38,453 nucleotides of DNA from a virus. Lineage: Duplodnaviria > Heunggongvirae > Uroviricota > Caudoviricetes. This document shows positions 1-18,192 of the stretch, one piece after another. Location of the stretch: IMG/VR virus record IMGVR_UViG_2541047932_000016; one strand, 5' to 3'. How positions within the stretch are numbered: the stretch's first letter is position 1; each line of letters begins with the position of its first letter. The translations under genes were made by a program, and so were the position numbers. Under the pieces are notes generated by a model. The model was not told the DNA's origin. It did not search any database and saw only the letters and a program-made list of their open reading frames with translations.

Positions 1-1020
1 CTACTTGCTAACCACGAGCGGCAAATCCAGTGTTGGTGTGATTTTTGTTTTACGATCGTAAATCAACACCTGATTTTCTGTTTTATGCCCGCTGAAAATT
101 TGTTTGTCGCGACTGCTGCCTTCGTAATCTGAGATCCCCTTGGCTTTTATGTCGTGAAAATTACACCCGAACGGAACGCCAACTTTTTGCTCGGCTGCGC
201 GTTTAGCCTGATTCCACCAGTTATTCAGCGTTTTAGCTATGACTTTCCCGCCTTTGGTTGTATTGATCACATATTCGCATGTACAGGAAGATACATTTCG
301 GGCTAACTGGATCGCTGTACGTAATCGCGGTGACCATTCCTTGATTTGTTTGGTGCCGGTTTTGTTTTGCTCAATGTAGATCCCTTTATCCATAATATCC
401 TGCCATTTCAACTCAAGCACATCACCGAGTCTTGCCGCACAGAGATAGGAAATCTCCATTGCAATGCGTAACTGTGGAATTGCTTCCGCATATATCGCCG
501 CATACTGTTCATCGGTGATGTAAACAGTGCGGGCTTTAAGAGAGAATTTTCTGACTCCTTTGCATGGGTTATTCTTCACATACCCACGCTCATATCCCCA
601 CCCGTATACTCGACTCAGGCTTGCCAGTTCATGATTTGCCTGGGTCTTGCTCTCAAGCCCTCGTTTATCCATGAAAATTCTTACCTGCTCAGTTTTGACA
701 TTATCAGCAAGCACTTTTCCGAATACCATCAGCAACGCCTTCTGATGTTGTCGATAATCTTTTTGGGTTCGGGGGGCCAGTTCTGTAAATGCAGGGGAGT
801 CCATAAACATGTGCCACAATTTAGCTACGGTCATTATGTTGTGGAGTTTTGCTTTTTCCAGTTCATAATTTTGCCAGACTTTAGCTACGCTGGTTTTCCG
901 CACTCTTCCTAGCCCTATACTTCTTGTACTTCCTTCGGGTTTCCACACGTAACTGTAACCATTCGATCTAACCCGCGGTGGCAGTACATTATCTTTTTTA
1001 TTTTTTCTTGGTCTTCCCAT
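1..1020 (-). CDS. int: Phage integrase, tyrosine recombinase family
   Basis: 339-aa ORF ending at the window edge; translation MGRPRKNKKDNVLPPRVRSNGYSYVWKPEG... looks like a lambdoid prophage integrase; leftmost position next to an xis-like gene is typical. Confidence 0.88.
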   Translation of the reverse strand: MGRPRKNKKDNVLPPRVRSNGYSYVWKPEGSTRSIGLGRVRKTSVAKVWQNYELEKAKLHNIMTVAKLWHMFMDSPAFTELAPRTQKDYRQHQKALLMVFGKVLADNVKTEQVRIFMDKRGLESKTQANHELASLSRVYGWGYERGYVKNNPCKGVRKFSLKARTVYITDEQYAAIYAEAIPQLRIAMEISYLCAARLGDVLELKWQDIMDKGIYIEQNKTGTKQIKEWSPRLRTAIQLARNVSSCTCEYVINTTKGGKVIAKTLNNWWNQAKRAAEQKVGVPFGCNFHDIKAKGISDYEGSSRDKQIFSGHKTENQVLIYDRKTKITPTLDLPLVVSK

Positions 1021-1240
1021 TGTTCAGCGCCTCAAAATCGGGTTCAGCAGAAACCAGTTCAGATGTTTTTGGCATCGTTGTCAGACCGTGTGGAATATCC
1101 CTGCGGAGAACGATGGGTTCGTTTTTAGGGCCGATTACAAATGGGATGCCGTGCAGTCTTAACTGGTGTTGCTGTTTTGTGTATCGCTCGTATTTCGTGA
1201 TCTCTTTAATCTCTGCTGGAGATAGAGTTAATTCGTACAT
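998..1240 (-). CDS. xis: Excisionase, lambda Xis-like
   Basis: 80-aa ORF from an internal ATG at 1238-1240 (MYELTLSPAEIKEITKYERY...NNGKTKKK); begins like lambda Xis (MYLTLQEW...) and ends in a Lys-rich tail; overlaps the int start by 23 nt as in lambda. Confidence 0.55.
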   Translation of the reverse strand: MYELTLSPAEIKEITKYERYTKQQHQLRLHGIPFVIGPKNEPIVLRRDIPHGLTTMPKTSELVSAEPDFEALNNGKTKKK

Positions 1241-1307
1241 GTGGTCACGTGCCTTTACAGCATGACCGCCGCCACTATAGCTGGTGGGCGGCGATATGGG
1301 TTGAACA

Positions 1308-2267
1308 TCAAAAATCAGCCTGACTCGGGAGCAGTTTTTGCCAGATGGCTGAAACGTATTTCGCCTGGTAACGTGCATCGTTCAGAGCGTTATGGCGTTC
1401 ACCTTCGAATGGAATAGTCGTTCTTGCGTCGAAATCCATCACCAGTCCCAGAGCAACCATCGTTCTTACATCGCGATCATTGGTGTAACGCCACGGGCAG
1501 GGGATCCCCTGCCGTTCATATGAACGGCGTAAAATCACGTTGTCGAAAGTTGCACCGTTACCCCAGACCTGAACAAAAAATTCACCGGAGTTTTCGTCGA
1601 TAAATTCCCGTAATTGCAGCAGTGCATCATCTAACGGGATTTCATCGGTAAGAATGGCGGATTGCGCTTCGCGTGACTGTTTCAGCCACCACTTAATGGT
1701 GTCCCGATCAATGACTCCGCCAGCAGTTTCCAGATCGATAGTTTTGCTGAATTCTGGCCCCATCTCTCCGGTTTGCGGATCGAAAAATATTGCACCTATT
1801 GAGATAATCGGGGCATCAGGATTTTTTCCCATGGTTTCAAGGTCGATCATCAGATGAATCCCCGCTCTGCTGGTGGATGTGAGATTATGATGACCGTTCG
1901 CCTTAATTAAGGGATCTGACGCCTCGCCAGTTTCACTATCGCTGGCATGATGCTGATTGCCGCCAGTGTTCTCCTTGTGCTGATGCGCAGTGCCTTCCAT
2001 TTCCTCCGGATCATTTTCCTGAACTTCAGGCTGATTCTCTTCATCGAATATTTCCTGGTATGTTGCGTCACTTATCACCGCACCACAATCAGGGCAGCTA
2101 CCGCCGCCGGTCTGACCGCAGGCGGTGCAGGCTTTTTCCGGCTCCTGTTTCGTTTCTGGCTCGTTTTGTTGCGCATTTGGGCTGTTTTGTTCCGTTTTCT
2201 GGTCGTTCTGTTCCGATTCTTGCTGGTTCTGGTTCACAGAATCGCAGGTTTCAATCCCTTCACCCAT
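1308..2267 (-). CDS. DEDD-type 3'-5' exonuclease (DnaQ-like, exodeoxyribonuclease VIII-like) with N-terminal Cys-rich zinc finger
   Basis: 319 aa; CTACGQTGGGSCPDCG Cys4 motif, then MIDLETMG...VWGNGATFDNVIL...HNALNDARYQAKY matching Exo I/II/III motifs of DEDDh exonucleases. Confidence 0.65.
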   Translation of the reverse strand: MGEGIETCDSVNQNQQESEQNDQKTEQNSPNAQQNEPETKQEPEKACTACGQTGGGSCPDCGAVISDATYQEIFDEENQPEVQENDPEEMEGTAHQHKENTGGNQHHASDSETGEASDPLIKANGHHNLTSTSRAGIHLMIDLETMGKNPDAPIISIGAIFFDPQTGEMGPEFSKTIDLETAGGVIDRDTIKWWLKQSREAQSAILTDEIPLDDALLQLREFIDENSGEFFVQVWGNGATFDNVILRRSYERQGIPCPWRYTNDRDVRTMVALGLVMDFDARTTIPFEGERHNALNDARYQAKYVSAIWQKLLPSQADF

Positions 2268-3757
2268 TTCGGATCATTCGGATCGCTAATCCCTTCAACA
2301 AATTCACCACGTGATGCAGCAAGCAATTTATCGGCGTCAGGCTGGCTGATATTGGCTGCCTGCATAATTTTGTTTACTTCGTCAGCGGTAACTTTTACCG
2401 GCTCCGGTTGTACGGAATCTTCAGCGGTATCCACATTTTGCGGTAAGTCCGTGTATGTTCCGTTTTTGCGGGCAAGATATTCTTCTTTCGTGATTTCAGT
2501 AGCCCCGGCAGCCAGCGCCTTGTCCAGACCAGAAAGTTTGTTTGCGCGACCGTATTTTTCGCCATCCTTGTCGGTGAAGAGGAAGTAGAACGGCCCCTCA
2601 CGCTCTACAGATGGTTCGACTTCCACTTTGCATTCGGTTTTTTCGTTGTCCGGAATTGCCGTTTCCACTGCATCAGTTTCTGGTACTGGCGACGAGAGAG
2701 TATCAGTTGCGCTCTGATTTCTTCCTTCATCTTCAAACACGCCCTTTGTAGTCAGGTATTCAGTAATGTATTTGTTCAGTGCCACAGGGTCTTTGTGAAT
2801 GTCGATCGGACGTTCACGGACAAGGCCAAAAATAGTCTGGCGGCTGTAGCGAAGCGCATCAGGTTGTTTGCGCATTGATGCGGAGATGCGCTTCCAGTCT
2901 TCGCGATCTCTGGCGATAACTTCATTTTTAGCCCAGCGAAGGATGCTGCCGTCAATGTTTCCGGCATCCGCATCACCAGGCCAGAGATAGTAGGCCAGCT
3001 CCCTGTCCAGGGTTTTCCATGTCTGCTTGTATTCGCGATGAATGGCGGCAGTTACAGGAGGGATTTTTTCTGCTGGGTTTTCAGTGTGCTGTCGGTTGGC
3101 TTTGGCGCGGGCAAGATCAACAACAGACGTGTATTTTCCAGTCTCTTTGCGCTCTGCGTCCTGCCGTTTTTTCCAGTTACGTAATTCAGCCTGAATTTCG
3201 GGCCATTTGGCACCCGGATTACATTTGTGTTTAACCCATCCGATAGCGAACAGTTTGCGTTCCGGATACATAGCGTTAATTTCAGGCGTTTTCATCAGTG
3301 CTTCAACGATATGCCCGTCAAAGGTAGCAACGTCTTCCTGCAGTAATTCCTGCGCGTCAATCGCCATATCAACGGTGATGTTTTCACATGTACCGAACTT
3401 AACCAGGACCGCGTTCTGTACTTCAAGGGACAGCTTGTCAAAATTGACGTTCATCGGATCGGATTCTGGTTCGACCGGAATAAAGGAAGCGGATTCCTCA
3501 TCCCAGCGGTTTTCCTGCATATATTCGGTATCCCAGGAGTCGATAGCAGGGCGGGGCATGCCGGGTTTATCTTCGCAGACAAGAAATTTATAAGCGCAGT
3601 CCTGAGCAGCCGGATAATGTTCCAGGAATTGCCAGTGAAATTTTGCGCGGGCGCGACGTTCATCACCGGCTTCAATGGCAGTGGCTACAGCAACTGCGCC
3701 CTCTTCTTTTATTGCCTGTTCGTCCGGAATGGCGGCGCAAATAAAGACTTTACTCAT
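2234..3757 (-). CDS. Hypothetical phage early protein (507 aa), acidic C-terminal half
   Basis: Long ORF with ATG at 3755-3757 and a GAGG-type RBS; co-oriented with the leftward early operon; no family recognised by eye. Confidence 0.6.
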   Translation of the reverse strand: MSKVFICAAIPDEQAIKEEGAVAVATAIEAGDERRARAKFHWQFLEHYPAAQDCAYKFLVCEDKPGMPRPAIDSWDTEYMQENRWDEESASFIPVEPESDPMNVNFDKLSLEVQNAVLVKFGTCENITVDMAIDAQELLQEDVATFDGHIVEALMKTPEINAMYPERKLFAIGWVKHKCNPGAKWPEIQAELRNWKKRQDAERKETGKYTSVVDLARAKANRQHTENPAEKIPPVTAAIHREYKQTWKTLDRELAYYLWPGDADAGNIDGSILRWAKNEVIARDREDWKRISASMRKQPDALRYSRQTIFGLVRERPIDIHKDPVALNKYITEYLTTKGVFEDEGRNQSATDTLSSPVPETDAVETAIPDNEKTECKVEVEPSVEREGPFYFLFTDKDGEKYGRANKLSGLDKALAAGATEITKEEYLARKNGTYTDLPQNVDTAEDSVQPEPVKVTADEVNKIMQAANISQPDADKLLAASRGEFVEGISDPNDPKWVKGLKPAIL

Positions 3758-3850
3758 TTTGTTTTAACCTCATTACAGATTTAAGGGTGAACAAATCCCT
3801 GCCATTGCTGGCATATAAAAATGAAACCGGATATTAATTACGGTGCTGTT

Positions 3851-4042
3851 TTAAAGTCCTGCCGGTATTTCGTTATTATTAGTGTGAGTAGTTTTATCTA
3901 CCGGATAACAGTTACCGGGAATTTTTTGTTCTGCTGCTGCAGCCATGCATTCTTTCATTGAACCGTATAAGCCAGTCACCAGCTCAAGAGATTCGCCGGA
4001 AACAAGATAAACTGTCAGAACGAGTGCAAATGTTGTATTCAT
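3851..4042 (-). CDS. Small membrane protein, YdfD-like (Qin prophage lysis protein family)
   Basis: 63 aa with N-terminal hydrophobic segment (MNTTFALVLTVYLVSG...); start overlaps dicB stop (ATGA); same size and position as ydfD downstream of dicB in Qin. Confidence 0.45.
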   Translation of the reverse strand: MNTTFALVLTVYLVSGESLELVTGLYGSMKECMAAAAEQKIPGNCYPVDKTTHTNNNEIPAGL

Positions 4043-4227
4043 TGTTTATATCCTTTTTGCAGCAGGTCCAGACGAGCCAGCATTGAAGGAATGCATACTT
4101 CATTTAACAGGTCCTGCTCGAGTTTTCTCTGCTTAATGGCGTCTTCAATAAATGTTTTGTCTCCAGTGATAACGCCAATTTCGAAACGAAGTTCAGACGT
4201 GCTGGCATTACATGATAACTTTTCCAT
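4039..4227 (-). CDS. dicB: Cell division inhibitor DicB
   Basis: 62-aa product MEKLSCNASTSELRFEIGVITGDKTFIEDAIKQRKLEQDLLNEVCIPSMLARLDLLQKGYKQ aligns along its length with E. coli DicB (...EIGV...EDAI.KRK.E..LLN..CI.SMLARL...KG..Q); start taken at the internal ATG 4225-4227, not the longer ORF. Confidence 0.85.
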   Translation of the reverse strand: MEKLSCNASTSELRFEIGVITGDKTFIEDAIKQRKLEQDLLNEVCIPSMLARLDLLQKGYKQ

Positions 4228-4403
4228 TATCGCGTCCTCAACAATGAATTTTGTGATGCGGTGCCTGGTGCCTCCAGGTGACGTTAACCAGTTAACAATT
4301 AACGCCGGATACAGAGAATCCACCCATAACACTGTTTTTGGTTTTAACTGTTCCGCGTGCGCTGAGCCGCATTCACCGCATCACAAAATTCACTTTTAAA
4401 AAA

Positions 4404-4456
4404 GGGCGGCAGAGCAGTCACGGAGTAAAACTGATACCGCCAAATGTCACCAGAAT
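4404..4456 (-). ncRNA. dicF: DicF small regulatory RNA (Hfq-dependent sRNA targeting ftsZ and other mRNAs)
   Basis: Minus-strand sequence ATTCTGGTGACATTTGGCGGTATCAGTTTTACTCCGTGACTGCTCTGCCGCCC is near-identical to the 53-nt E. coli DicF as I recall it, followed by a T-run; lies just upstream of dicB as in Qin. Confidence 0.78.
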
Positions 4457-4794
4457 ATTGATAACAGAGGGCGTTGTAGCGGGGTTGTCACTTAAGCGTA
4501 TGGTCAACCTGACAACCCGGTGTCCTCAACTGGGGAAGGAATAACCCCGCCATACTTACCGCCGCGCCATTTCGCGGATTGCCACAACCGGAAGCGCACG
4601 TTCGAAGAAATCTAACGACAAGCCTTCTAAGGGAAAGAGCTTCGCCGTACGCTTTCGCGTTATGCCCTGACTTTTCAGGGAAATATCCTTTCAGTAAACT
4701 GTCAGTACCGGATTCTTATCCGTGTCCGGCGCACGACCACACGTGACAGCGTGTTGGTCTCCATTTTTAACCCAGAACCTCAATGGAGGATAAA

Positions 4795-5004
4795 ATGCCA
4801 AACAAAAAAAGAAATCCGCTTATTGAAAAACAGATTGAATGCCTGGTAAATCAACTCAGGCAATCAGGGTTATTAAAAACTCATTCAGAGTTGAGGCTCA
4901 CAGAATCAGCATTCGACGATAAATTAAATAATGTCCTTTATAATGGCATTATTGATTTTAATCGTTCTGTTGGTCGCCGCGGCCCTGCTGGTGTTTCCTT
5001 ATAA
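4795..5004 (+). CDS. Hypothetical small protein (69 aa)
   Basis: ATG at 4795 preceded by GGAGG at 5-nt spacing; convergent with the 216-aa gene and abutting it stop-to-stop with zero gap; product MPNKKRNPLIEKQIECLVNQLRQSG... not recognised. Confidence 0.35.
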   Translation: MPNKKRNPLIEKQIECLVNQLRQSGLLKTHSELRLTESAFDDKLNNVLYNGIIDFNRSVGRRGPAGVSL

Positions 5005-5655
5005 TTACCAGTCAATCCAGAGTGGACCGTGTTCAGCGTAAATATAACTGTACACATCCAGATTATATTTGTGGTCTGTTAAGAACAGGCCGCAAATACA
5101 TGCCGAAGCTTCCAGTGCAGCGGCTCTGTTACTGAATAACCATGTAGCAACATTCCAGCGTTTTTCTGCATCCCAGTCTTTCTCAAGGCCTGATACCATG
5201 AAGAAACCGTTAGTGTTGCCATCAAATAATTCTGTTTCCAAATTTTTAAGCAATGCCTGATGGACTCTTGCCAGGTATTCCGCCGGAATTTCGCCACGAA
5301 TTCTAATGAGATTGTCATAAACAAACATGTTCCCCGCATATGGCGATTTTTCTTTCTTGTTTTTTAAACCAGCATCATGAGCAAACTGATCAATTTCTTC
5401 TTCCGTTGGTTTCGTATTGATGTTTTGCGCTGTCGTTTCTGCAATTTTATTTGCCATACTCTCTGAGTCGTGTTTATTTATAGACGCACAGAAATACAAT
5501 CCGGTAAACGCATCGCGCACATTACGAGCCATATTATCAGTGTCTTTTTTCGTTACCGATTCCAATTCAAGTTCGTTCAGACGATGACGAAGTGTGTGTG
5601 CTGCAATCTCCTGGATTGAAGGAGGTAAATCTTTAAATTCCATCGTCAATCTCAT
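5005..5655 (-). CDS. Hypothetical protein (216 aa), first large gene of the leftward early operon
   Basis: ORF with ATG at 5653-5655; no hydrophobic segments, no Arg-rich N-like motif; lies downstream of the putative PL/OL region. Confidence 0.65.
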   Translation of the reverse strand: MRLTMEFKDLPPSIQEIAAHTLRHRLNELELESVTKKDTDNMARNVRDAFTGLYFCASINKHDSESMANKIAETTAQNINTKPTEEEIDQFAHDAGLKNKKEKSPYAGNMFVYDNLIRIRGEIPAEYLARVHQALLKNLETELFDGNTNGFFMVSGLEKDWDAEKRWNVATWLFSNRAAALEASACICGLFLTDHKYNLDVYSYIYAEHGPLWIDW

Positions 5656-5807
5656 CAGTCAGAGTTTCTTGCTAACCAGCGACGCGCGCCAGCTTCCGTT
5701 TTAAACGTTTTGCTTCTGGTATACGTCATCGCGGTGAACGTGCCGTCCAGGTTGGGGAATACTCCGCATACCAGAGATTCGTTGTTGCCAAGATTGAGCA
5801 TATCCAT
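5655..5807 (-). CDS. Small ORF (50 aa), translationally coupled to the 216-aa gene
   Basis: ATG at 5805-5807 with GAGG RBS 5-6 nt upstream; product MDMLNLGNNESLVCGVFPNLDGTFTAMTYTRSKTFKTEAGARRWLARNSD; its TGA overlaps the downstream ATG (TGATG). Absent from the ORF track because it is under 60 aa. Confidence 0.4.
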   Translation of the reverse strand: MDMLNLGNNESLVCGVFPNLDGTFTAMTYTRSKTFKTEAGARRWLARNSD

Positions 5808-5984
5808 GTTGACCTCATTTACCCTTAACGCCGGGTCGCGGAACTAAAAACCTGCTGCGCTGTTATACAAAGTGTTCCCGCCGTCATGTTCATACGCCTC
5901 GGGCTGGCTACTTAACCCCTGGCCACTGCCGGGTAACTCGAGGTATTGCCCTGCATTCTGTGGGGTGGGTGGGTGATGAATAAA

Positions 5985-6036
5985 CAATAGCACTGCTATT
6001 TTATTGTGTAAATAGTAATGCTATTGTTTTTTTGGA
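5985..6036 (-). promoter_or_regulatory. Putative leftward early promoter with operators (PL/OL-like)
   Basis: Two copies of the 13-bp palindrome ATAGC-N3-GCTAT (5987-5999 ATAGCACTGCTAT; 6012-6024 ATAGTAATGCTAT) overlapping a minus-strand TTTACA-N17-TATTGT promoter-like element; the same palindrome recurs between the repressor and cro-like genes. Confidence 0.45.
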
Positions 6037-6039
6037 GGT

Positions 6040-6075
6040 AAGAAAAAAAACCACCCGAAGGTGGTTGTTGGTAGG
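6040..6075 (-). terminator. Rho-independent terminator downstream of the repressor-TA operon
   Basis: Minus strand reads ACCACCTTCGGGTGGT followed by a T-run, immediately after the parE2-like stop. Confidence 0.6.
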
Positions 6076-6080
6076 AATGA

Positions 6081-6371
6081 TTAACAGCTTTTGTTTGGAT
6101 ACTGCCTTCGTGAGTGAACTACATTTACGATCTCGATGTTAGATGCTGTTACTCGGTAAAGTATTATGTAGTTAGGATGGGTCACTATCTCACGAAGGCC
6201 TAGAGCTCTTTCGCTTGGTGGATACAGGTAAGGGTGTTCAGAAAGTGACAAAACTGATGTTTCAATGCGTATTTTTAGTCTACGTGCAGCGGGAGGGTTT
6301 TCCTTGGCAATATAGGCCACGATCTGACGCAAATCATCACGCGCAGAAGGTAGCCATAAAATGGGCAGCAT
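6081..6371 (-). CDS. parE2: ParE/RelE-family toxin (ParE2-like)
   Basis: 96 aa; MLPILWLPSARDDLRQIVAYIAKENPPAARRLKIRIETSV... is typical of ParE toxins; start overlaps the upstream antitoxin stop by 1 nt. Confidence 0.8.
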   Translation of the reverse strand: MLPILWLPSARDDLRQIVAYIAKENPPAARRLKIRIETSVLSLSEHPYLYPPSERALGLREIVTHPNYIILYRVTASNIEIVNVVHSRRQYPNKSC

Positions 6372-6562
6372 TACTCACTCCTGTTCGTCGAAGCTATTTG
6401 CGCAATAAGGTTTTCCATTTCAGCCATTACTTCGTCATGCGGAATTGCAGGACGGGGGTCTGCGAGGCTTGCTGCCACTTTGGTGCGTAACCATTCGTTA
6501 TAGCTGTTTTCTTGTTCGATTGTTTCAAATTCTGAAATTATCGGGGAAAGGACTGTACTCAT
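6371..6562 (-). CDS. paaA2: PaaA2-like antitoxin
   Basis: 63 aa; SEFETIEQENSYNEWLR.KVAASLADPRPAIPHDEV matches my recollection of E. coli O157 PaaA2; GGAGG RBS; directly upstream of the ParE-like toxin. Confidence 0.72.
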   Translation of the reverse strand: MSTVLSPIISEFETIEQENSYNEWLRTKVAASLADPRPAIPHDEVMAEMENLIAQIASTNRSE

Positions 6563-6579
6563 GTTCTAACCTCCTCAGA

Positions 6580-7080
6580 TTAGGCGCGACGACCTTTTTG
6601 CGCCTCTAGCCACCGCGCAACGGTTTCTTCAATTGATTCTTTTTTCTCCTTCATTTCCTTAAGCATTTTCTCTTTGTCTTCTTTTGGGAAAGCCCTGAAC
6701 GTCTGGATCAAATCTCGCTCTATAGGTTCTATATTAAACGGAAGTTCGTTTTCCGATTGCTCCATCTCTGCGGGTAAAGCGACAACATTATCCTGCTGCA
6801 GTTCTTGGGGGTACATCCTTACAATTCGTAACAAGTCTGCCATATCTGGTCTAATTGACTCAGGCGGAACTTGTAGCAACCCAGCGAACTTGATAACAGC
6901 CTCTAGATTTAAAGGTGTCTGACCATTTAGATAATGGCTTACTGCCCCTTGTGTCGAAAAACCCAGAATTTCTGCCGCACGCTCTTGGGTTAACCCAAGT
7001 TGAGTTTTTTTCGTCGTCCAGATTTCTTTCAGTCTCTGGGCGGCTTGCAGGTCGATCTCTGACAGGGGTTTTCTTTTCAT
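6580..7080 (-). CDS. Prophage repressor, HTH XRE family (CI-like, no S24 peptidase domain)
   Basis: 166 aa; HTH segment LGLTQERAAEILGFSTQGAVSHYLNG; divergent from a cro-like gene across an operator-bearing intergenic region; C-terminus is Lys/Glu-rich, not LexA-like. Confidence 0.8.
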   Translation of the reverse strand: MKRKPLSEIDLQAAQRLKEIWTTKKTQLGLTQERAAEILGFSTQGAVSHYLNGQTPLNLEAVIKFAGLLQVPPESIRPDMADLLRIVRMYPQELQQDNVVALPAEMEQSENELPFNIEPIERDLIQTFRAFPKEDKEKMLKEMKEKKESIEETVARWLEAQKGRRA

Positions 7081-7187
7081 ACCTTCAATTCTAATAAGAT
7101 TATTAATCTCTTTGAAATAGCGATGCTATTTACTTTCAAAAATAACAATGCTATTAATGCTCATGGTCACATAACATGAGGTGAACA
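7081..7187. promoter_or_regulatory. Divergent immunity promoter/operator region (OR/PR/PRM-like)
   Basis: 107-bp AT-rich intergenic region between divergent repressor and cro-like genes; contains palindromes AGATTATTAATCT (7097-7109) and ATAGCGATGCTAT (7117-7129). Confidence 0.55.
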
Positions 7188-7451
7188 ATGAATCTTGGAG
7201 AATATTTGCATCATTCCCGTATAACCCAGAAAGATTTTGCTGAAATTGTTGGGGTAACCCAAGGGATGGTAAGCCATGTTATTACTGGACGGGCGAAACT
7301 TACGGGGGGGAAAGTTTTACGCTGGTGTGAAGCAACAGGGTGGGTAGTGACCCCGCACGAGATTGATAGCAGTACTTACCCCAACCCAACCGATGGCATA
7401 CCTGTTGACTATCAGGCTAACACACAACCCGCGCTGGGAGTTGATTCATGA
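7188..7451 (+). CDS. Cro/YdaS-like HTH regulator
   Basis: 87 aa; HTH ITQKDFAEIVGVTQGMVSHVITG; GAGGTG RBS; first rightward gene opposite the repressor. Confidence 0.7.
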   Translation: MNLGEYLHHSRITQKDFAEIVGVTQGMVSHVITGRAKLTGGKVLRWCEATGWVVTPHEIDSSTYPNPTDGIPVDYQANTQPALGVDS

Positions 7452-7873
7452 AAATCAAGCATGAACACATCCGCATGGCGATGAATGCCTGGGCGCGTCC
7501 TGATGGCGAAAAAGTTCCAGCAGCTGGAATAACCCAGGCTTATTTTGAGTTGGGTATGACGTTCCCAGAACTGTATGACGACAGCCATCCGGAAGCCCTG
7601 GCTCGCAATACCCAGAAAATTTTCCGCTGGGTAAAGAAAGATACTCCTGATGCCGTTGAAAAAATGCAGGCTCTGTTACCAGCTATCGAAAAAGCAATGC
7701 CGCCTCTGCTGGTGGCCCGAATGCGCAGCCACAGTTCCGCTTATTTTCGGGAGTTGGTAGAGACGAAGGAACGGCTGGTGAAAGATATTGATGATTTCGT
7801 TGCATCAGCGATCGTTCTGTTCGATCAGATGAATCGTGGTGGCCCGGCAGGAAACACTCTGGCTGTGCATTAA
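7448..7873 (+). CDS. YdaT-like protein (Rac-type early protein)
   Basis: 141 aa; N-terminus MKIKHEHI... as I recall for YdaT-family proteins; overlaps the cro-like stop by 4 nt. Confidence 0.55.
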   Translation: MKIKHEHIRMAMNAWARPDGEKVPAAGITQAYFELGMTFPELYDDSHPEALARNTQKIFRWVKKDTPDAVEKMQALLPAIEKAMPPLLVARMRSHSSAYFRELVETKERLVKDIDDFVASAIVLFDQMNRGGPAGNTLAVH

Positions 7874-7886
7874 TTGGGTAATAAAT

Positions 7887-8396
7887 ATGAGTAATGACAA
7901 AAAATTGACACTGAGCGTTTACGAAAACAGTCCGCACATCTGGCGTGGCGGTTTATCTGATGTGGAGCTGGCAGAGTGGTTGATACATAAAGCTAATGCG
8001 CTGCTCTGGCGTTTGTCAGCCAGAGAACAGCGCAAGGAAACCAGAATAAAGCTGGCTGATGCAGAAGCGTGTGCCGGGCTTATTGAGGATTATACAAATC
8101 TTGGTATTTCTTCAGCAGAGAGTGATCCCATTCAGCCTCTGAGCAGGGAGTCAATCCAGCACGCTGGTTGTATGGCACATCTTGTAACTGCTCGTCAACA
8201 TGAGGTGGGTATTGGATCACTTCCGGTGGGATATTCGCTGATTCCAGAGCTGGTTGAAGCAAGAAAATCAGTTCAGAAAAAGAGAGATGACGCACTTCAA
8301 TTATTGAGAGAGCACTATGGCGCGATACCAGAATGCGAACAGCGTCGATACCCTGAAGGTTATGAATGGATGCAGTCTCTTTTTGAAGTTCGCTAA
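7887..8396 (+). CDS. Hypothetical protein (169 aa)
   Basis: ORF in the rightward early operon; start at internal ATG 7887 (MSNDKKLTLSVYENSPHIW...) chosen because the longer ORF overlaps the YdaT-like gene; unrecognised. Confidence 0.45.
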   Translation: MSNDKKLTLSVYENSPHIWRGGLSDVELAEWLIHKANALLWRLSAREQRKETRIKLADAEACAGLIEDYTNLGISSAESDPIQPLSRESIQHAGCMAHLVTARQHEVGIGSLPVGYSLIPELVEARKSVQKKRDDALQLLREHYGAIPECEQRRYPEGYEWMQSLFEVR

Positions 8397-8613
8397 TCAA
8401 TATGTCGAGACGAAGGTATGTTTCGGCGCGCAGCCAGGCTCTGTAATCCGGGAGCATTTCGGGGCTGTTACACCAGCGGTTTGTTGCTGCAACATTTAAT
8501 ACATGAGCCTGATAAAGGCTTTTCAAAAAATACATGTCGAACCTCCTCTGGTTCTGTCGATTGGGAACCACAGATTATATCCGGAGGAAGGTTCGGCACC
8601 AGATGAGGTAGCC

Positions 8614-13766: not shown

Positions 13767-13901
13767 GGTAAACCTCACGGAGTAGGATAGAACACCATTC
13801 GATGATAGCACGTTGCCTGTTGACGACAACAGAAATCAGAGACAATATTGCCGCACGCCAGCTTGAACAACTGGCACCTGCTGCGCCAGCAGAGAAAACC
13901 G

Positions 13902-17453: not shown

Positions 17454-17529
17454 GGCCCTTTAGCTCAGTGGTGAGAGCGAGCGACTCATAATCGCCAGGT
17501 CGCTGGTTCAAATCCAGCAAGGGCCACCA
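17454..17529 (+). tRNA. tRNA with CAT anticodon (Ile2/Met type; ileX/ileZ-like)
   Basis: Hand-folded 76-nt cloverleaf: acceptor GGCCCTT/AAGGGCC, anticodon loop CTCATAA, T-loop TTCAAAT, 3' CCA. Confidence 0.8.
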
Positions 17530-17536
17530 TCACATA

Positions 17537-17613
17537 CCGCCATTAGCTCATCAGGAAAGAGCGCCAGCTTTCGAAGCTGGTTGCGCGGAGTTCGGGTCCC
17601 CGAAGGCGGTCCA
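17537..17613 (+). tRNA. tRNA-Arg-like (anticodon TCG by hand folding), possibly degenerate
   Basis: 77 nt: acceptor CCGCCAT/AAGGCGG (one A-A mismatch), anticodon loop TTTCGAA, T-stem with one mismatch, T-loop TTCGGGT (non-canonical G at position 58), CCA. Confidence 0.5.
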
Positions 17614-17626
17614 TTATCTGTATCCT

Positions 17627-17703
17627 GCGTTGTTAGCTCAGCCGGACAGAGCAATTGCCTTCTAAGCAATCGGTCACTGGTTCGAATCCAGTACAACGCG
17701 CCA
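17627..17703 (+). tRNA. tRNA-Arg (anticodon TCT)
   Basis: 77 nt: acceptor GCGTTGT/ACAACGC, anticodon stem ATTGC/GCAAT, loop CTTCTAA, T-loop TTCGAAT, discriminator G, CCA. Confidence 0.8.
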
Positions 17704-18192
17704 CACTTATTTTCCCTGGCTCGCTTTTGCGGGCCTTTTTTTTAAATGTCTCACAATTCAGGCGGTTGACTGTTGTCTGGTTTGCGGGGAGTTTGTTAAA
17801 AGAAACTGGCATGGTGAATCCCCCTGTGCGGAGGGGCAATCAGCGAGTAGGTATATGGGATAATCGCGGATTCAGGTGCTGGTACTGAATTCACCGGGAG
17901 GCACCCGGCACCATGCAATGGCACATAGCGCCACTCTCCAGCCCCTCTCCGGAGGGGCTTTCTTATGGACAAAAAAAGCCCGCGCAGGGAGACGCGGGCG
18001 GCAAGGAATAAACAACAAAACGTGAAGTAATATTTCAGCTGGCGAATAATATCCGACAGTAATCACTCTGCGCAATAGCGCGGCCTTTTTCGTATTGCGG
18101 GCTGTTGTCTCTCTTCTGCCATTGTCCTGTAACTTCCGGACTTCAGCCCGCTCCTCATTTTACTCACAATATTATCCCGGCCGGGAGGATTC

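What the first reader, a model, noticed from the sequence alone, without database searches (positions are those of the whole stretch)
5985..7187. Immunity region: peptidase-less repressor, shared ATAGC-N3-GCTAT operators at both promoters, and a TA module in the rex position
The 13-bp palindrome ATAGC-N3-GCTAT occurs twice at 5987-6024 (putative OL) and once at 7117-7129 (putative OR), consistent with one repressor controlling both early promoters. The repressor lacks a LexA-like cleavage domain, so induction is probably not by RecA-mediated autocleavage. A PaaA2-ParE2-like toxin-antitoxin pair lies between the repressor gene and OL and is likely co-transcribed with it, where lambda carries rexAB.
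Basis: partly seen in the sequence, partly recalled or inferred. Interest (0 to 1): 0.45.

Follow-up and report, generated by a model that had tools for sequence, protein, structure and literature searches.

The report
Prophage immunity switch carrying toxin-antitoxin cargo
This is the on/off control region of a lambda-like E. coli prophage: a non-self-cleaving repressor, its paired DNA binding sites at two promoters, and a ParE-type toxin-antitoxin pair riding in the repressor operon. This layout has already been characterised experimentally in E. coli O157:H7 prophage CP-933P, and the copy here is a new DNA-binding-specificity variant of it.

Summary
The operator is a 15-bp palindrome, AATAGCAnTGCTATT. 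It occurs four times, not three: 5986-6000, 6011-6025, 7116-7130 and 7141-7155. That compares with 0.02 sites expected by chance, and there are no other sites in the 38 kb window. The sites form two pairs, each 25 bp centre to centre, and each pair overlaps the -35 and -10 of a PL-like or PR-like promoter.

The 166-aa repressor has a lambda-CI-type N-terminal domain (38% identity, RMSD about 2 A), a disordered linker and a roughly 50-residue all-helical C-terminal module. It has no S24 peptidase domain. That C-terminal module is 50% identical to the one in PaaR2 of prophage CP-933P and is related to the DicA C-terminus.

The downstream genes are PaaA2- and ParE2-family (64-65% identical). They are tightly packed in one operon that ends at a terminator just before OL. 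The opposite strand carries a Cro/YdaS-like gene and ydaT, with a perfect YdaT site at their junction.

What is new is a heteroimmune cassette. The repressor head, the Cro recognition helix and the operators are swapped together, while the C-terminal module and the TA pair are kept. Verdict: interpretation supported, ordinary, a new member of a known kind.

The parts
5986..6000 (.). OL1: perfect operator AATAGCACTGCTATT, overlapping the -10 of the PL-like promoter
   Evidence: PL -10 TATTGT at 5989-5984
6011..6025 (.). OL2: operator AATAGTAATGCTATT (1 mismatch), abutting or overlapping the PL -35
   Evidence: PL -35 TTTACA at 6012-6007
5984..6012 (-). PL-like promoter (TTTACA-17-TATTGT with extended TG) driving the leftward ydfA(DUF1391)...dicF-dicB operon
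   Evidence: consensus scan only; downstream genes
6040..6066 (-). Intrinsic terminator (AACCACCTTCGGGTGGTT plus T-run) ending the repressor-paaA-parE operon before OL
   Evidence: terminators of different sequence sit at the same position in L002, L005 and L006
6081..6371 (-). parE-family toxin, 96 aa (65% identical to ParE2, 86% to the L002 allele)
6371..6562 (-). paaA-family antitoxin, 63 aa, no DNA-binding domain (64% identical to PaaA2)
6580..7080 (-). Repressor, 166 aa: lambda-CI-like N-terminal domain (residues 1-89), disordered linker (90-112), DicA/PaaR2-type helical C-terminal module (about 115-166)
7088..7116 (-). PRM-like promoter (TTCAAA-17-TAGAAT). The -10 ends 7 nt before the repressor ATG, implying a leaderless mRNA
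   Evidence: leaderless PaaR2 shown experimentally in CP-933P
7116..7130 (.). OR2: operator AATAGCGATGCTATT (1 mismatch), between the PRM -35 and the PR -35; its centre lies about 42-43 bp upstream of the predicted PRM start
7141..7155 (.).
7129..7158 (+). PR-like promoter (TTTACT, 17-18 nt spacer, TGcTATTAAT), read by eye by analogy with PL; the consensus scanner did not call it
   Evidence: alignment of the PL and PR regions; inference
7188..7451 (+). Cro/YdaS-like HTH protein, 87 aa; recognition helix TQGMVSH matches the repressor's TQGAVSH
7441..7458 (.). Perfect YdaT operator OM (TTGATTCATGAAAATCAA) at the cro/ydaT junction, marking the PRE-type region
   Evidence: consensus from PMC9986795
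7448..7873 (+). ydaT (CII analogue), 141 aa, 86.5% identical to CP-933P YdaT (PDB 8BT1)
4404..5807 (-). Start of the PL-controlled operon: DUF1391/ydfA-like gene (5655-5807), 216-aa phrog_2151 protein (5005-5655), DicF sRNA (4404-4455); dicB-like ORF just beyond (4039-4332)

Best explanation
This is the immunity (lysogeny-maintenance) switch of a CP-933P/Qin-like lambdoid E. coli prophage, built on the same plan as the published paaR2-paaA2-parE2 / ydaS-ydaT region but with a different DNA-binding specificity.

Shown from sequence:
- A 166-aa repressor joins a lambda-CI-type HTH head to a short helical DicA/PaaR2-type tail and has no peptidase domain.
- Four 15-bp palindromes form two 25-bp-spaced pairs, one on a PL-like and one on a PR-like promoter.
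- The operon repressor-paaA-parE ends at a terminator just before OL.
- The divergent strand carries cro(ydaS-like)-ydaT with a perfect YdaT site.

Inferred mechanism:
- Repressor dimers occupy OR1/OR2 and OL1/OL2, blocking PR and PL. PL drives a ydfA...dicF-dicB division-inhibitor operon.
- The dimer on OR2, centred about -42 from a leaderless PRM start, activates PRM through the conserved acidic patch E33/E37 (lambda E34/D38).
- The helical tails mediate dimer-dimer contacts. Four dimers on 2+2 sites about 1.13 kb apart would match the octamer reported for PaaR2 and allow an OL-OR loop.
- Cro carries the same recognition-helix motif and competes for the same sites.
- YdaT acts as the CII analogue from a PRE-type promoter at the cro/ydaT junction.
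- The PaaA/ParE pair is passenger cargo expressed from PRM in the lysogen, acting as an addiction module for the immunity cassette.
- Because there is no S24 domain, derepression cannot occur by RecA-stimulated self-cleavage.
For: Operators:
- 4 sites at <=1 mismatch against 0.02 expected, none elsewhere in the window, placed on the -35 and -10 of the PL- and PR-like promoters.
- Cassette swap: the window and L002 are 99% identical up to 5975, about 80% over parE-paaA-repressor tail (6125-6681), unalignable over 6682-7369 (repressor head, OR, Cro HTH), and 95% identical from 7370. L002 has different palindromes at both OL and OR.
- Covariation across three immunity types: repressor and Cro share a recognition-helix motif that changes with the operator (TQGAVSH/TQGMVSH; TQQTVQQW/AQQTVWQW; SYLSQLMSG/SYLSQMASG).
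- The motif is conserved at OR and OL in L005 and L006/7, whose repressors are about 46-50% identical but have an invariant recognition helix. It is identical in L001, which sits on a different prophage backbone.

Repressor:
- N-terminal domain matches lambda CI (phmmer 1.6e-9; Foldseek TM 0.81-0.93, 38% identity).
- The model shows a helical tail and no beta structure.
- Tail is 50% identical to PaaR2 (E 1e-14) and 58% identical to the L002 repressor tail. It matches the DicA model (E 9e-7) and hhalign gives 96% probability.

TA pair and YdaT.

Leaderless design: a -10 hexamer lies 6-7 nt before the ATG in five loci, including the experimentally leaderless paaR2.

Published experiments on the homologous system (EMSA, footprints, gfp fusions, octamer, no mitomycin C response): PMC8630535 and PMC9986795.
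Against: - No binding, transcription-start or induction data exist for this immunity type. All promoter assignments are consensus matches, and the scanner found no more promoter-like sites than shuffles give (3 against 3.2).
- PR was read by eye and fails the scanner's -10 rule.
- Only two operators per side were found and there is no OR3-like site at <=3 mismatches. How PRM is shut off by Cro, or negatively autoregulated, is therefore unclear and may differ from lambda and from CP-933P, which has 3-4 sites.
- The Salmonella relatives L003/L004 keep both recognition helices but lack the palindrome. They carry the half-sites in everted order, which is unexplained.
- Oligomerisation through the tail is inferred from PaaR2. 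The monomer model has pTM 0.47.
- TA activity was not tested.
Confidence: 0.85

Rival explanations
1. Three-component toxin-antitoxin view: the 166-aa protein is mainly the dedicated transcriptional regulator of paaA-parE (a split antitoxin) rather than the prophage master repressor, and the sites at 5986-6025 have nothing to do with it.
For: paaR2-paaA2-parE2 was first described as a three-component TA (Hallez 2010, as summarised in PMC4803016). PaaA has no DNA-binding domain.
Against: The same operator pair sits on a PL-like promoter for the dicF/dicB operon. Relatives with the same head and operators have no TA at all (L005, L006) or a different TA, higBA (L003), so the repressor-operator system exists independently of the cargo. 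mBio 2021 reached the same conclusion for PaaR2.
Confidence: 0.05
2. The prophage is still SOS-inducible, indirectly. A LexA-controlled antirepressor (Gifsy, 186 Tum or N15 AntC style), encoded outside this window or unrecognised within it, binds and inactivates the non-cleavable repressor.
For: This is the known solution for peptidase-less repressors in Salmonella Gifsy prophages (my recollection of Lemire et al. 2011, not checked here). The window ends inside the late genes, so part of the prophage was not examined. Several early ORFs have no known function. L003 relatives encode a TumE-family protein nearby.
Against: No LexA box was found. One CTGT-N8-ACAG at 13817 is at chance level, and there is no match to the 20-bp consensus at <=3 mismatches. 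No Ant/Rha/KilA/Bro family appears among early genes. The homologous CP-933P/Sp12 region is reported not to react to mitomycin C.
Confidence: 0.2
3. The palindromes are chance AT-rich promoter sequence, or are bound only by the Cro-like protein and not by the 166-aa repressor.
For: The regions are AT-rich promoter DNA. Binding was not measured. The Cro and repressor heads are swapped together, so comparative data cannot separate them.
Against: 4 sites against 0.02 expected. The motif is conserved in diverged loci at both OR and OL. Repressor and Cro share the TQGxVSH recognition helix, which predicts shared sites as in lambda and CP-933P.
Confidence: 0.03
4. The repressor is a degenerate or truncated LexA-like autocleaving CI.
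For: The N-terminal domain is a true lambda CI homologue. A distant relative, P0033, pairs a related head with a genuine S24 domain.
Against: There is no S24 hit. Only about 50 ordered C-terminal residues exist and all are helical. The tail is conserved as its own family with PaaR2 and DicA, so it is not a remnant.
Confidence: 0.01

Closest known systems
paaR2-paaA2-parE2 / ydaS-ydaT immunity region of cryptic prophage CP-933P (Sp12) in E. coli O157:H7 (Jurenas et al. 2021, PMC8630535; Prolic-Kalinsek et al. 2023, PMC9986795)
   Same: Gene order and orientation. A non-cleavable repressor with the same C-terminal module (50% identity over 44 residues). PaaA- and ParE-family cargo (64% and 65% identical). 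YdaT 86.5% identical, with an identical OM site. OR plus OL/PL operators. A -10 hexamer 6-7 nt before the repressor ATG (leaderless design). A conserved PL leader and a dicB-type leftward operon.
   Different: The repressor N-terminal domain is unrelated (lambda-CI-like here) and the protein is longer (166 against 123 aa). Cro is only 31% identical. The operator is AATAGCAnTGCTATT instead of the GTTTAGTAA-type repeats. There are two sites per side instead of 3-4. The TA alleles are diverged enough that cross-neutralisation is uncertain.
Lambda immunity region (cI-rexA-rexB, OR/OL, cro, cII)
   Same: Overall switch topology. The repressor N-terminal domain is homologous (38% identity, RMSD about 2 A), including the N-terminal arm and the acidic patch corresponding to E34/D38. 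The operator next to the PRM -35 is centred near -42. The repressor mRNA is leaderless. A passenger module lies between the repressor gene and OL.
   Different: No S24 peptidase or RecA-cleavage domain. A short helical tail instead. 2+2 rather than 3+3 operators. The cargo is a type II TA pair rather than RexAB. The CII analogue is the structurally unrelated YdaT.
DicA-DicC switch of the Qin prophage (E. coli K-12)
   Same: The repressor tail matches the DicA model (E 9e-7; hhalign 96%). The repressed leftward operon contains ydfA-like, DicF and dicB genes.
   Different: The match is below the NCBIfam full-length cut-off because the head domain differs. Qin has no TA cargo after dicA.
L002-type immunity cassette (E. 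coli EH2252 and O157 strains; possibly the paralogous paaR1-paaA1-parE1, not verified)
   Same: The prophage backbone is 95-99% identical. The TA pair is 86% identical and the repressor tail 58% identical.
   Different: Different HTH heads on both repressor and Cro, and different operators (AAAAACTGTT / AACAGTTTTT-type palindromes).

Membership tests
PaaR-PaaA-ParE three-component module / CP-933P-type immunity region | Operon order regulator-antitoxin-toxin, tightly spaced, with a terminator after the toxin gene | tested here: met
   17-bp gap with a GAGGAGG Shine-Dalgarno sequence, overlapping paaA stop and parE start, and a terminator at 6049-6066
PaaR-PaaA-ParE three-component module / CP-933P-type immunity region | Antitoxin of the PaaA2 family without a DNA-binding domain | tested here: met
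   PF21217 E 2.9e-22; PDB 3ZBE E 1.7e-22; 63.5% identity
PaaR-PaaA-ParE three-component module / CP-933P-type immunity region | ParE-fold toxin related to ParE2 | tested here: met
   PF05016 E 3.8e-18; PDB 5CW7 E 2.2e-35; 65.2% identity
PaaR-PaaA-ParE three-component module / CP-933P-type immunity region | Regulator homologous to PaaR2: C-terminal module | tested here: met
   50% identity, 84% positives over residues 123-166, E 1e-14; family alignment A3
PaaR-PaaA-ParE three-component module / CP-933P-type immunity region | Regulator homologous to PaaR2: N-terminal DNA-binding domain and operator sequence | tested here: not met
   No N-terminal similarity by BLASTP. No AATAGCAnTGCTATT site in the CP-933P-type locus L008; the published operators there are GTTTAGTAA-type.
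PaaR-PaaA-ParE three-component module / CP-933P-type immunity region | Divergent ydaS-ydaT pair with a YdaT TTGATT-N6-AATCAA site at their junction | tested here: met
   YdaT matches 8BT1 at E 5.5e-82; perfect site at 7441-7458
PaaR-PaaA-ParE three-component module / CP-933P-type immunity region | Leaderless repressor mRNA | tested here: inconclusive
   A -10 TAGAAT lies 7 nt before the ATG, and the same layout occurs in 5 loci, but the transcription start was not measured
PaaR-PaaA-ParE three-component module / CP-933P-type immunity region | Repressor binds OR and OL, forms octamers, toxin is neutralised by antitoxin | not testable with these tools
   Needs EMSA or footprinting, SEC-MALS or native MS, and toxicity-rescue assays
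Lambda CI / LexA-like autocleaving repressors | Lambda-type five-helix HTH N-terminal domain with N-terminal arm | tested here: met
   phmmer 1LMB 1.6e-9; Foldseek 1RIO/1LMB/3KZ3 TM 0.81-0.93
Lambda CI / LexA-like autocleaving repressors | C-terminal S24 peptidase domain with Ser/Lys dyad and cleavage site | tested here: not met
   No PF00717 hit; helical 50-residue tail; no structural match beyond residue 98
Lambda CI / LexA-like autocleaving repressors | Tripartite OR and OL | tested here: not met
   Only two sites per side; no third site at <=3 mismatches
DicA-type prophage repressors (Qin) | DicA-like C-terminal domain | tested here: met
   NF007257 positions 75-130, E 9.2e-7, tail only and below the full-length cut-off; hhalign A3 against A4 probability 96.2%, E 2.6e-9
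DicA-type prophage repressors (Qin) | Controls a ydfA...dicF-dicB operon | tested here: inconclusive
   The operon content is present downstream of the PL-like promoter; regulation was not measured
Antirepressor-controlled non-cleavable repressors (Gifsy type) | LexA-boxed antirepressor gene in the prophage | tested here: not met
   No credible LexA box and no antirepressor family in early genes. The prophage extends beyond the window, so this applies to the window only.

The most novel reading that the evidence does not exclude
DicA/PaaR-tailed repressors may form a minimal lambdoid switch: four dimers on exactly 2+2 operators forming one octameric OL-OR loop, with no OR3. Their turnover might be set by proteolysis rather than by RecA. 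The extreme C-terminus is conserved as ...QK(G/C/S)RRA across immunity types and resembles the MuA-type ClpX recognition tail (my recollection of Flynn et al. 2003, not tested here). Induction would then respond to ClpXP load, the same protease reported to degrade PaaA2, which would couple release of the TA toxin to loss of immunity. In addition, the TA alleles co-diverge with the immunity cassette, which would fit a role in policing cassette replacement.
Probability: 0.12. Interest if true: 0.55.

Novelty: new member of a known kind. Interest (0 to 1): 0.27.

Why it matters
Little changes for the field. The architecture (peptidase-less CI analogue, shared OR/OL operators, PaaA-ParE in the rex slot, YdaS/YdaT as Cro/CII) is already documented experimentally for CP-933P.

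The modest added value is comparative:
- At least three heteroimmune versions exist in E. coli prophages. In each, the repressor head, the Cro recognition helix and the operators co-vary, while the helical tail and the TA cargo persist.
- This version has an unusually clean, predictable operator (AATAGCAnTGCTATT, 2+2 sites) and a lambda-like head. That makes it a convenient system for asking how a DicA/PaaR-type tail substitutes for the lambda C-terminal domain in cooperativity and looping, and how such prophages are induced.
- The slot after the repressor gene is a general cargo site holding paaA-parE, higBA or nothing.

Tried and rejected
1. S24 peptidase in the repressor C-terminus: not found by Pfam, the AlphaFold model, Foldseek or a PDB sequence search.
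2. A third operator (OR3/OL3): none at <=3 mismatches.
3. LexA boxes: a single chance-level CTGT-N8-ACAG at 13817, and no 20-mer consensus match.
4. An antirepressor among early genes: none recognised by PHROGs.
5. Defence-system models for the cassette proteins: no PADLOC hits.
6. A structured or known RNA in the conserved PL leader or elsewhere in the switch: fold z-score +0.63 and no credible Rfam hit.
7. Word-indexed search with the tail alignment returned mostly fragments. The exhaustive phmmer search found only 10 cluster representatives. This understates the family, because the DicA-like branch shows up only with profile methods.
8. A PDB structure for PaaR2 or the tail: none is deposited that sequence search can detect.
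9. Whether the L002 cassette is the published paaR1-paaA1-parE1 system could not be verified, because Hallez 2010 is not in the library.
10. The operator prediction failed in L003/L004 at <=2 mismatches. Only everted half-sites are present, so this is left unexplained.
Full report
**What is in the sequence.** The interval 5985-7187 and its flanks contain the following on the minus strand:
- a ParE-family toxin gene (6081-6371);
- a PaaA2-family antitoxin gene whose stop overlaps the toxin start (6371-6562);
- 17 bp upstream, a 166-aa helix-turn-helix protein (6580-7080).

On the plus strand are an 87-aa Cro/YdaS-like HTH protein (7188-7451) and a 141-aa YdaT (7448-7873). An intrinsic terminator on the minus strand (6049-6066 plus a T-run) closes the three-gene operon. 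Leftward of it lie a DUF1391/ydfA-like gene, a 216-aa phage protein, the DicF sRNA (4404-4455) and a dicB-like ORF. This is a Qin-type division-inhibitor operon.

**Checking the observation.**
- ATAGC-N3-GCTAT is exact at 5987-5999 and 7117-7129.
- The copy at 6012-6024 has one mismatch (ATAGT).
- All eight half-sites read (A/C/T)AATAGCA, so the true element is the 15-bp 7-1-7 palindrome AATAGCAnTGCTATT.
- At <=1 mismatch it occurs four times against 0.02 expected, and 0 of 100 shuffles reach four.
- Nothing else in the 38 kb matches at <=2 mismatches, and no third site exists near either pair at <=3 mismatches.
- Both pairs are 25 bp centre to centre.

At the left pair, a consensus scan finds a minus-strand promoter: TTTACA (6012-6007), 17 nt, TATTGT (5989-5984), with an extended TG. 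One operator covers the -10 and the other abuts the -35. The right pair shows the same arrangement on the plus strand (TTTACT 7129-7134, then TGcTATTAAT 7150-7158) when the two regions are laid side by side. This PR was read by eye, and the scanner did not call it.

A third promoter, TTCAAA (7116-7111), 17 nt, TAGAAT (7093-7088), points into the repressor gene. Its -10 ends 7 nt before the ATG. That implies a leaderless or nearly leaderless mRNA.

**The repressor.**
- Pfam finds only HTH_3 (residues 27-74) and no Peptidase_S24.
- phmmer against the PDB matches residues 2-82 to the lambda CI N-terminal domain (E 1.6e-9). The match includes the N-terminal arm (MKRKPLSE against STKKKPLTQ) and acidic residues E33/E37 aligned to lambda E34/D38. 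That these two lambda residues form the sigma-contact patch is my own knowledge.
- An AlphaFold2 model (mean pLDDT 75) has five helices in residues 8-89, a disordered stretch at 90-112, and two helices at 119-130 and 133-165, with no beta structure.
- Foldseek matches only the N-terminal domain. The best hits are lambda cI-NTD entries 1RIO, 1LMB and 3KZ3 (38% identity, RMSD 1.1-2.2 A, TM 0.81-0.93).
- The C-terminus has no solved relative.

**What the tail is.** Strain EH2252 (locus L002) carries a prophage 96% identical to the first 20 kb of the window. Its 133-aa repressor, in the same position, shares 58% identity with residues 103-166 of the window protein and nothing at the N-terminus.

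I retrieved a genuine CP-933P-type locus (L008, O157:H7 PV15-279) using a primer sequence from the mBio 2021 supplement. It encodes PaaR2 (MQKKEIRRL...ARWIAAQKCRRA, 123 aa). Its last 44 residues are 50% identical and 84% similar to the window repressor (E 1e-14), again with unrelated heads.

The motif xLLxxFxAFPEEDxxxMLxExKxKKExxExxxARWLxAQKxRRA defines a narrow family. An exhaustive phmmer search found 10 cluster representatives among 1.84 billion (alignment A3). It is, however, a branch of something wider:
- The NCBIfam DicA model matches the window protein only over residues 107-162 (model positions 75-130, E 9e-7, below the full-length cut-off).
- A profile-profile comparison with the DicA-like tails of more distant relatives gives 96% probability and E 2.6e-9.

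PaaR2 is reported to octamerise (PMC8630535). I infer that the tail is the oligomerisation module.

**Evidence that the palindromes are the operators of this repressor/Cro pair.**

First, mosaic boundaries. Comparing window with L002:

| Window interval | Content | Identity to L002 |
|---|---|---|
| 1-5975 | up to 11 bp left of OL1 | 99% |
| 6125-6681 | parE, paaA, repressor tail | about 80% |
| 6682-7369 | repressor head, OR, Cro HTH | unalignable |
| from 7370 | rest of cro, ydaT onward | 95% |

L002 carries different palindromes (AAAAACTGTT / AACAGTTTTT type) at both OL and OR.

Second, locus L001 has the same cassette (repressor 99.4%, PaaA 100%, ParE 99%, Cro 100%, four operators) on a different backbone, with ydaT only 85% identical. 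The block from OL to cro therefore moves as a unit.

Third, covariation. In all three immunity types the repressor and its Cro share a recognition-helix motif, and that motif changes together with the operator (published operators):

| Immunity type | Repressor helix | Cro helix |
|---|---|---|
| Window | TQGAVSHYLNG | TQGMVSHVITG |
| L002 | TQQTVQQWVSG | AQQTVWQWFSF |
| CP-933P | KSYLSQLMSG | PSYLSQMASG |

Fourth, a prediction test. The recognition helix is invariant in relatives only 45-50% identical overall. In L005 and L006/L007 the same palindrome recurs in pairs in the repressor-cro intergenic region and directly after the repressor's terminator. L005 has 4 sites and L006 has 3 at <=2 mismatches; by my own calculation about 0.02 are expected in a locus of this size.

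The Salmonella relatives L003/L004 are an exception. They lack the palindrome but carry ATAG/CTAT half-sites in everted order at both OR and the presumed OL: 5 hits against 0.67 in shuffles. I could not explain this.

**The cargo.**
- The antitoxin is PaaA2-family (PF21217; PDB 3ZBE, E 1.7e-22; 63.5% identity).
- The toxin is ParE2-like (PDB 5CW7, E 2.2e-35; 65.2% identity).
- Both are about 86% identical to the L002 alleles.
- PaaA/ParE-like DNA occurs in 841 of 5,426 complete E. coli genomes. This particular immunity cassette occurs in 72.

In relatives with the same repressor head, the slot between the repressor gene and OL holds higB-higA (L003/4) or nothing (L005, L006/7). The TA is therefore passenger cargo of the PRM operon and not part of the switch. 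No PADLOC defence model matches it.

**The rightward arm.** YdaT is 86.5% identical to the crystallised CP-933P protein (8BT1, E 5.5e-82). A perfect copy of its published operator, TTGATT-N6-AATCAA, lies at 7441-7458 across the cro stop and the ydaT start. This is exactly where OM and PRE lie in CP-933P.

**Mechanism.**

Shown from sequence:
- the parts, their order and their homologies;
- the four operators and their positions relative to consensus promoters;
- the co-inheritance of operators with the two HTH heads;
- the absence of a peptidase domain.

Inferred by analogy with lambda and with the experiments on CP-933P (EMSA, footprints, gfp fusions, 5' RACE):
- Repressor dimers on OR1/OR2 and OL1/OL2 shut PR and PL.
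- The OR2-bound dimer, centred about 42-43 bp upstream of the predicted PRM start, activates PRM through E33/E37.
- The helical tails link dimers. Four dimers on 2+2 sites 1.13 kb apart equal one octamer and could form a loop.
- Cro competes for the same sites.
- YdaT provides establishment transcription.
- paaA-parE is expressed with the repressor in the lysogen.
- Induction cannot proceed by RecA-stimulated self-cleavage.

How induction does proceed is unknown. I found no LexA box and no recognisable antirepressor among the early genes. The window stops inside the late region, and the homologous Sp12/CP-933P is reported not to respond to mitomycin C.

**Comparison with what is known.**
- PaaR2 and YdaS bind OR and regulate a PL with matching OL operators.
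- paaA2-parE2 "replace rexA and rexB" (PMC9986795).

The window is therefore a new member of a known kind: a heteroimmune variant with a lambda-CI-like head, a distinct 15-bp operator and only two sites per side. It fails membership of the lambda CI/LexA-like family on the defining peptidase domain. It fails strict orthology with PaaR2 on the DNA-binding domain. It meets the architectural and tail criteria of the PaaR/DicA-type switch.

**Verdict.** Novelty is low and the interest score is 0.27. The residual interest lies in the clean modular head swap, the minimal 2+2 operator design, and the open question of how DicA/PaaR-tailed repressors are inactivated.

Noticed in passing
Proteins P0013-P0023 (Logan/ENA assemblies); compare window 6580-7080: Relatives of about 244 aa are tandem double-HTH repressors. 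They have a head 65-77% identical to the window repressor's N-terminal domain, then a second HTH resembling the L002-type head, then the same PaaR-type tail. The window protein's disordered linker (residues 90-112) sits where the second HTH would be. This could mean dual operator specificity, or a recombination intermediate between immunity types.
   Followed up: partly
L003/L004 3612-4339 (Salmonella enterica subsp. diarizonae and a Logan contig): In relatives with the same repressor head, the slot between the repressor gene and OL carries a HigB/HigA toxin-antitoxin pair instead of PaaA/ParE. In L005 and L006/7 the slot is empty. The position behaves as a general cargo site.
   Followed up: partly
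L003 2936, 2985, 4455: These loci keep both recognition helices but have the ATAG/CTAT half-sites in everted order (CTATT-N3-5-AATAG) at OR and the presumed OL, in place of the inverted palindrome. There are 5 hits against 0.67 in shuffles. Unexplained.
   Followed up: partly
window 4404-4455 (-): DicF antisense sRNA (Rfam RF00039, 77 bits), followed by a dicB-like ORF at 4039-4332. The PL operon is a Qin-type cell-division-inhibitor operon.
   Followed up: partly
window 17454-17970 (+): Three tRNA genes (17454-17700), followed by the sRNA STnc100 (RF02076, 138 bits), downstream of the Q antiterminator gene. This is typical of the Q-to-late-gene region of EHEC lambdoid prophages.
   Followed up: no
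window 7836-8571: Two long ORFs overlap antisense to each other, and both have family support. The plus-strand ORF (169 aa from 7887) hits phrog_8304 at E 5.5e-120. The minus-strand ORF (8080-8571, 163 aa) hits the NCBIfam ECs1072 family at E 2.7e-30. PGAP annotates only the minus-strand gene in L002. Which one is real, or whether both are, was not resolved.
   Followed up: no
window 7160-7181 (+): An inverted repeat, CTCATG-N9-CATGAG, lies in the predicted cro 5' leader and overlaps the GAGG ribosome-binding site. Two AT-rich palindromes (TAATAAGATTATTA and AGATTATTAATCT, 7091-7109) lie inside the PRM spacer. Neither recurs at OL. Their function, if any, is unknown (read).
   Followed up: no
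window 6580-6600 (repressor C-terminus); alignment A3: The extreme C-terminus ...QK(G/C/S)RRA is conserved across all three immunity types, including PaaR2. It resembles a basic MuA-type ClpX recognition tail (my recollection, untested) and could bear on repressor turnover.
   Followed up: no
window 13817-13832: The only CTGT-N8-ACAG in the window (CTGTTGACGACAACAG) sits at a mosaic junction just upstream of a small ORF (phrog_1212) and the DUF968/HNH-RusA-Q block. It is at chance level and has a GC-rich centre, so it is probably not a LexA box.
   Followed up: partly
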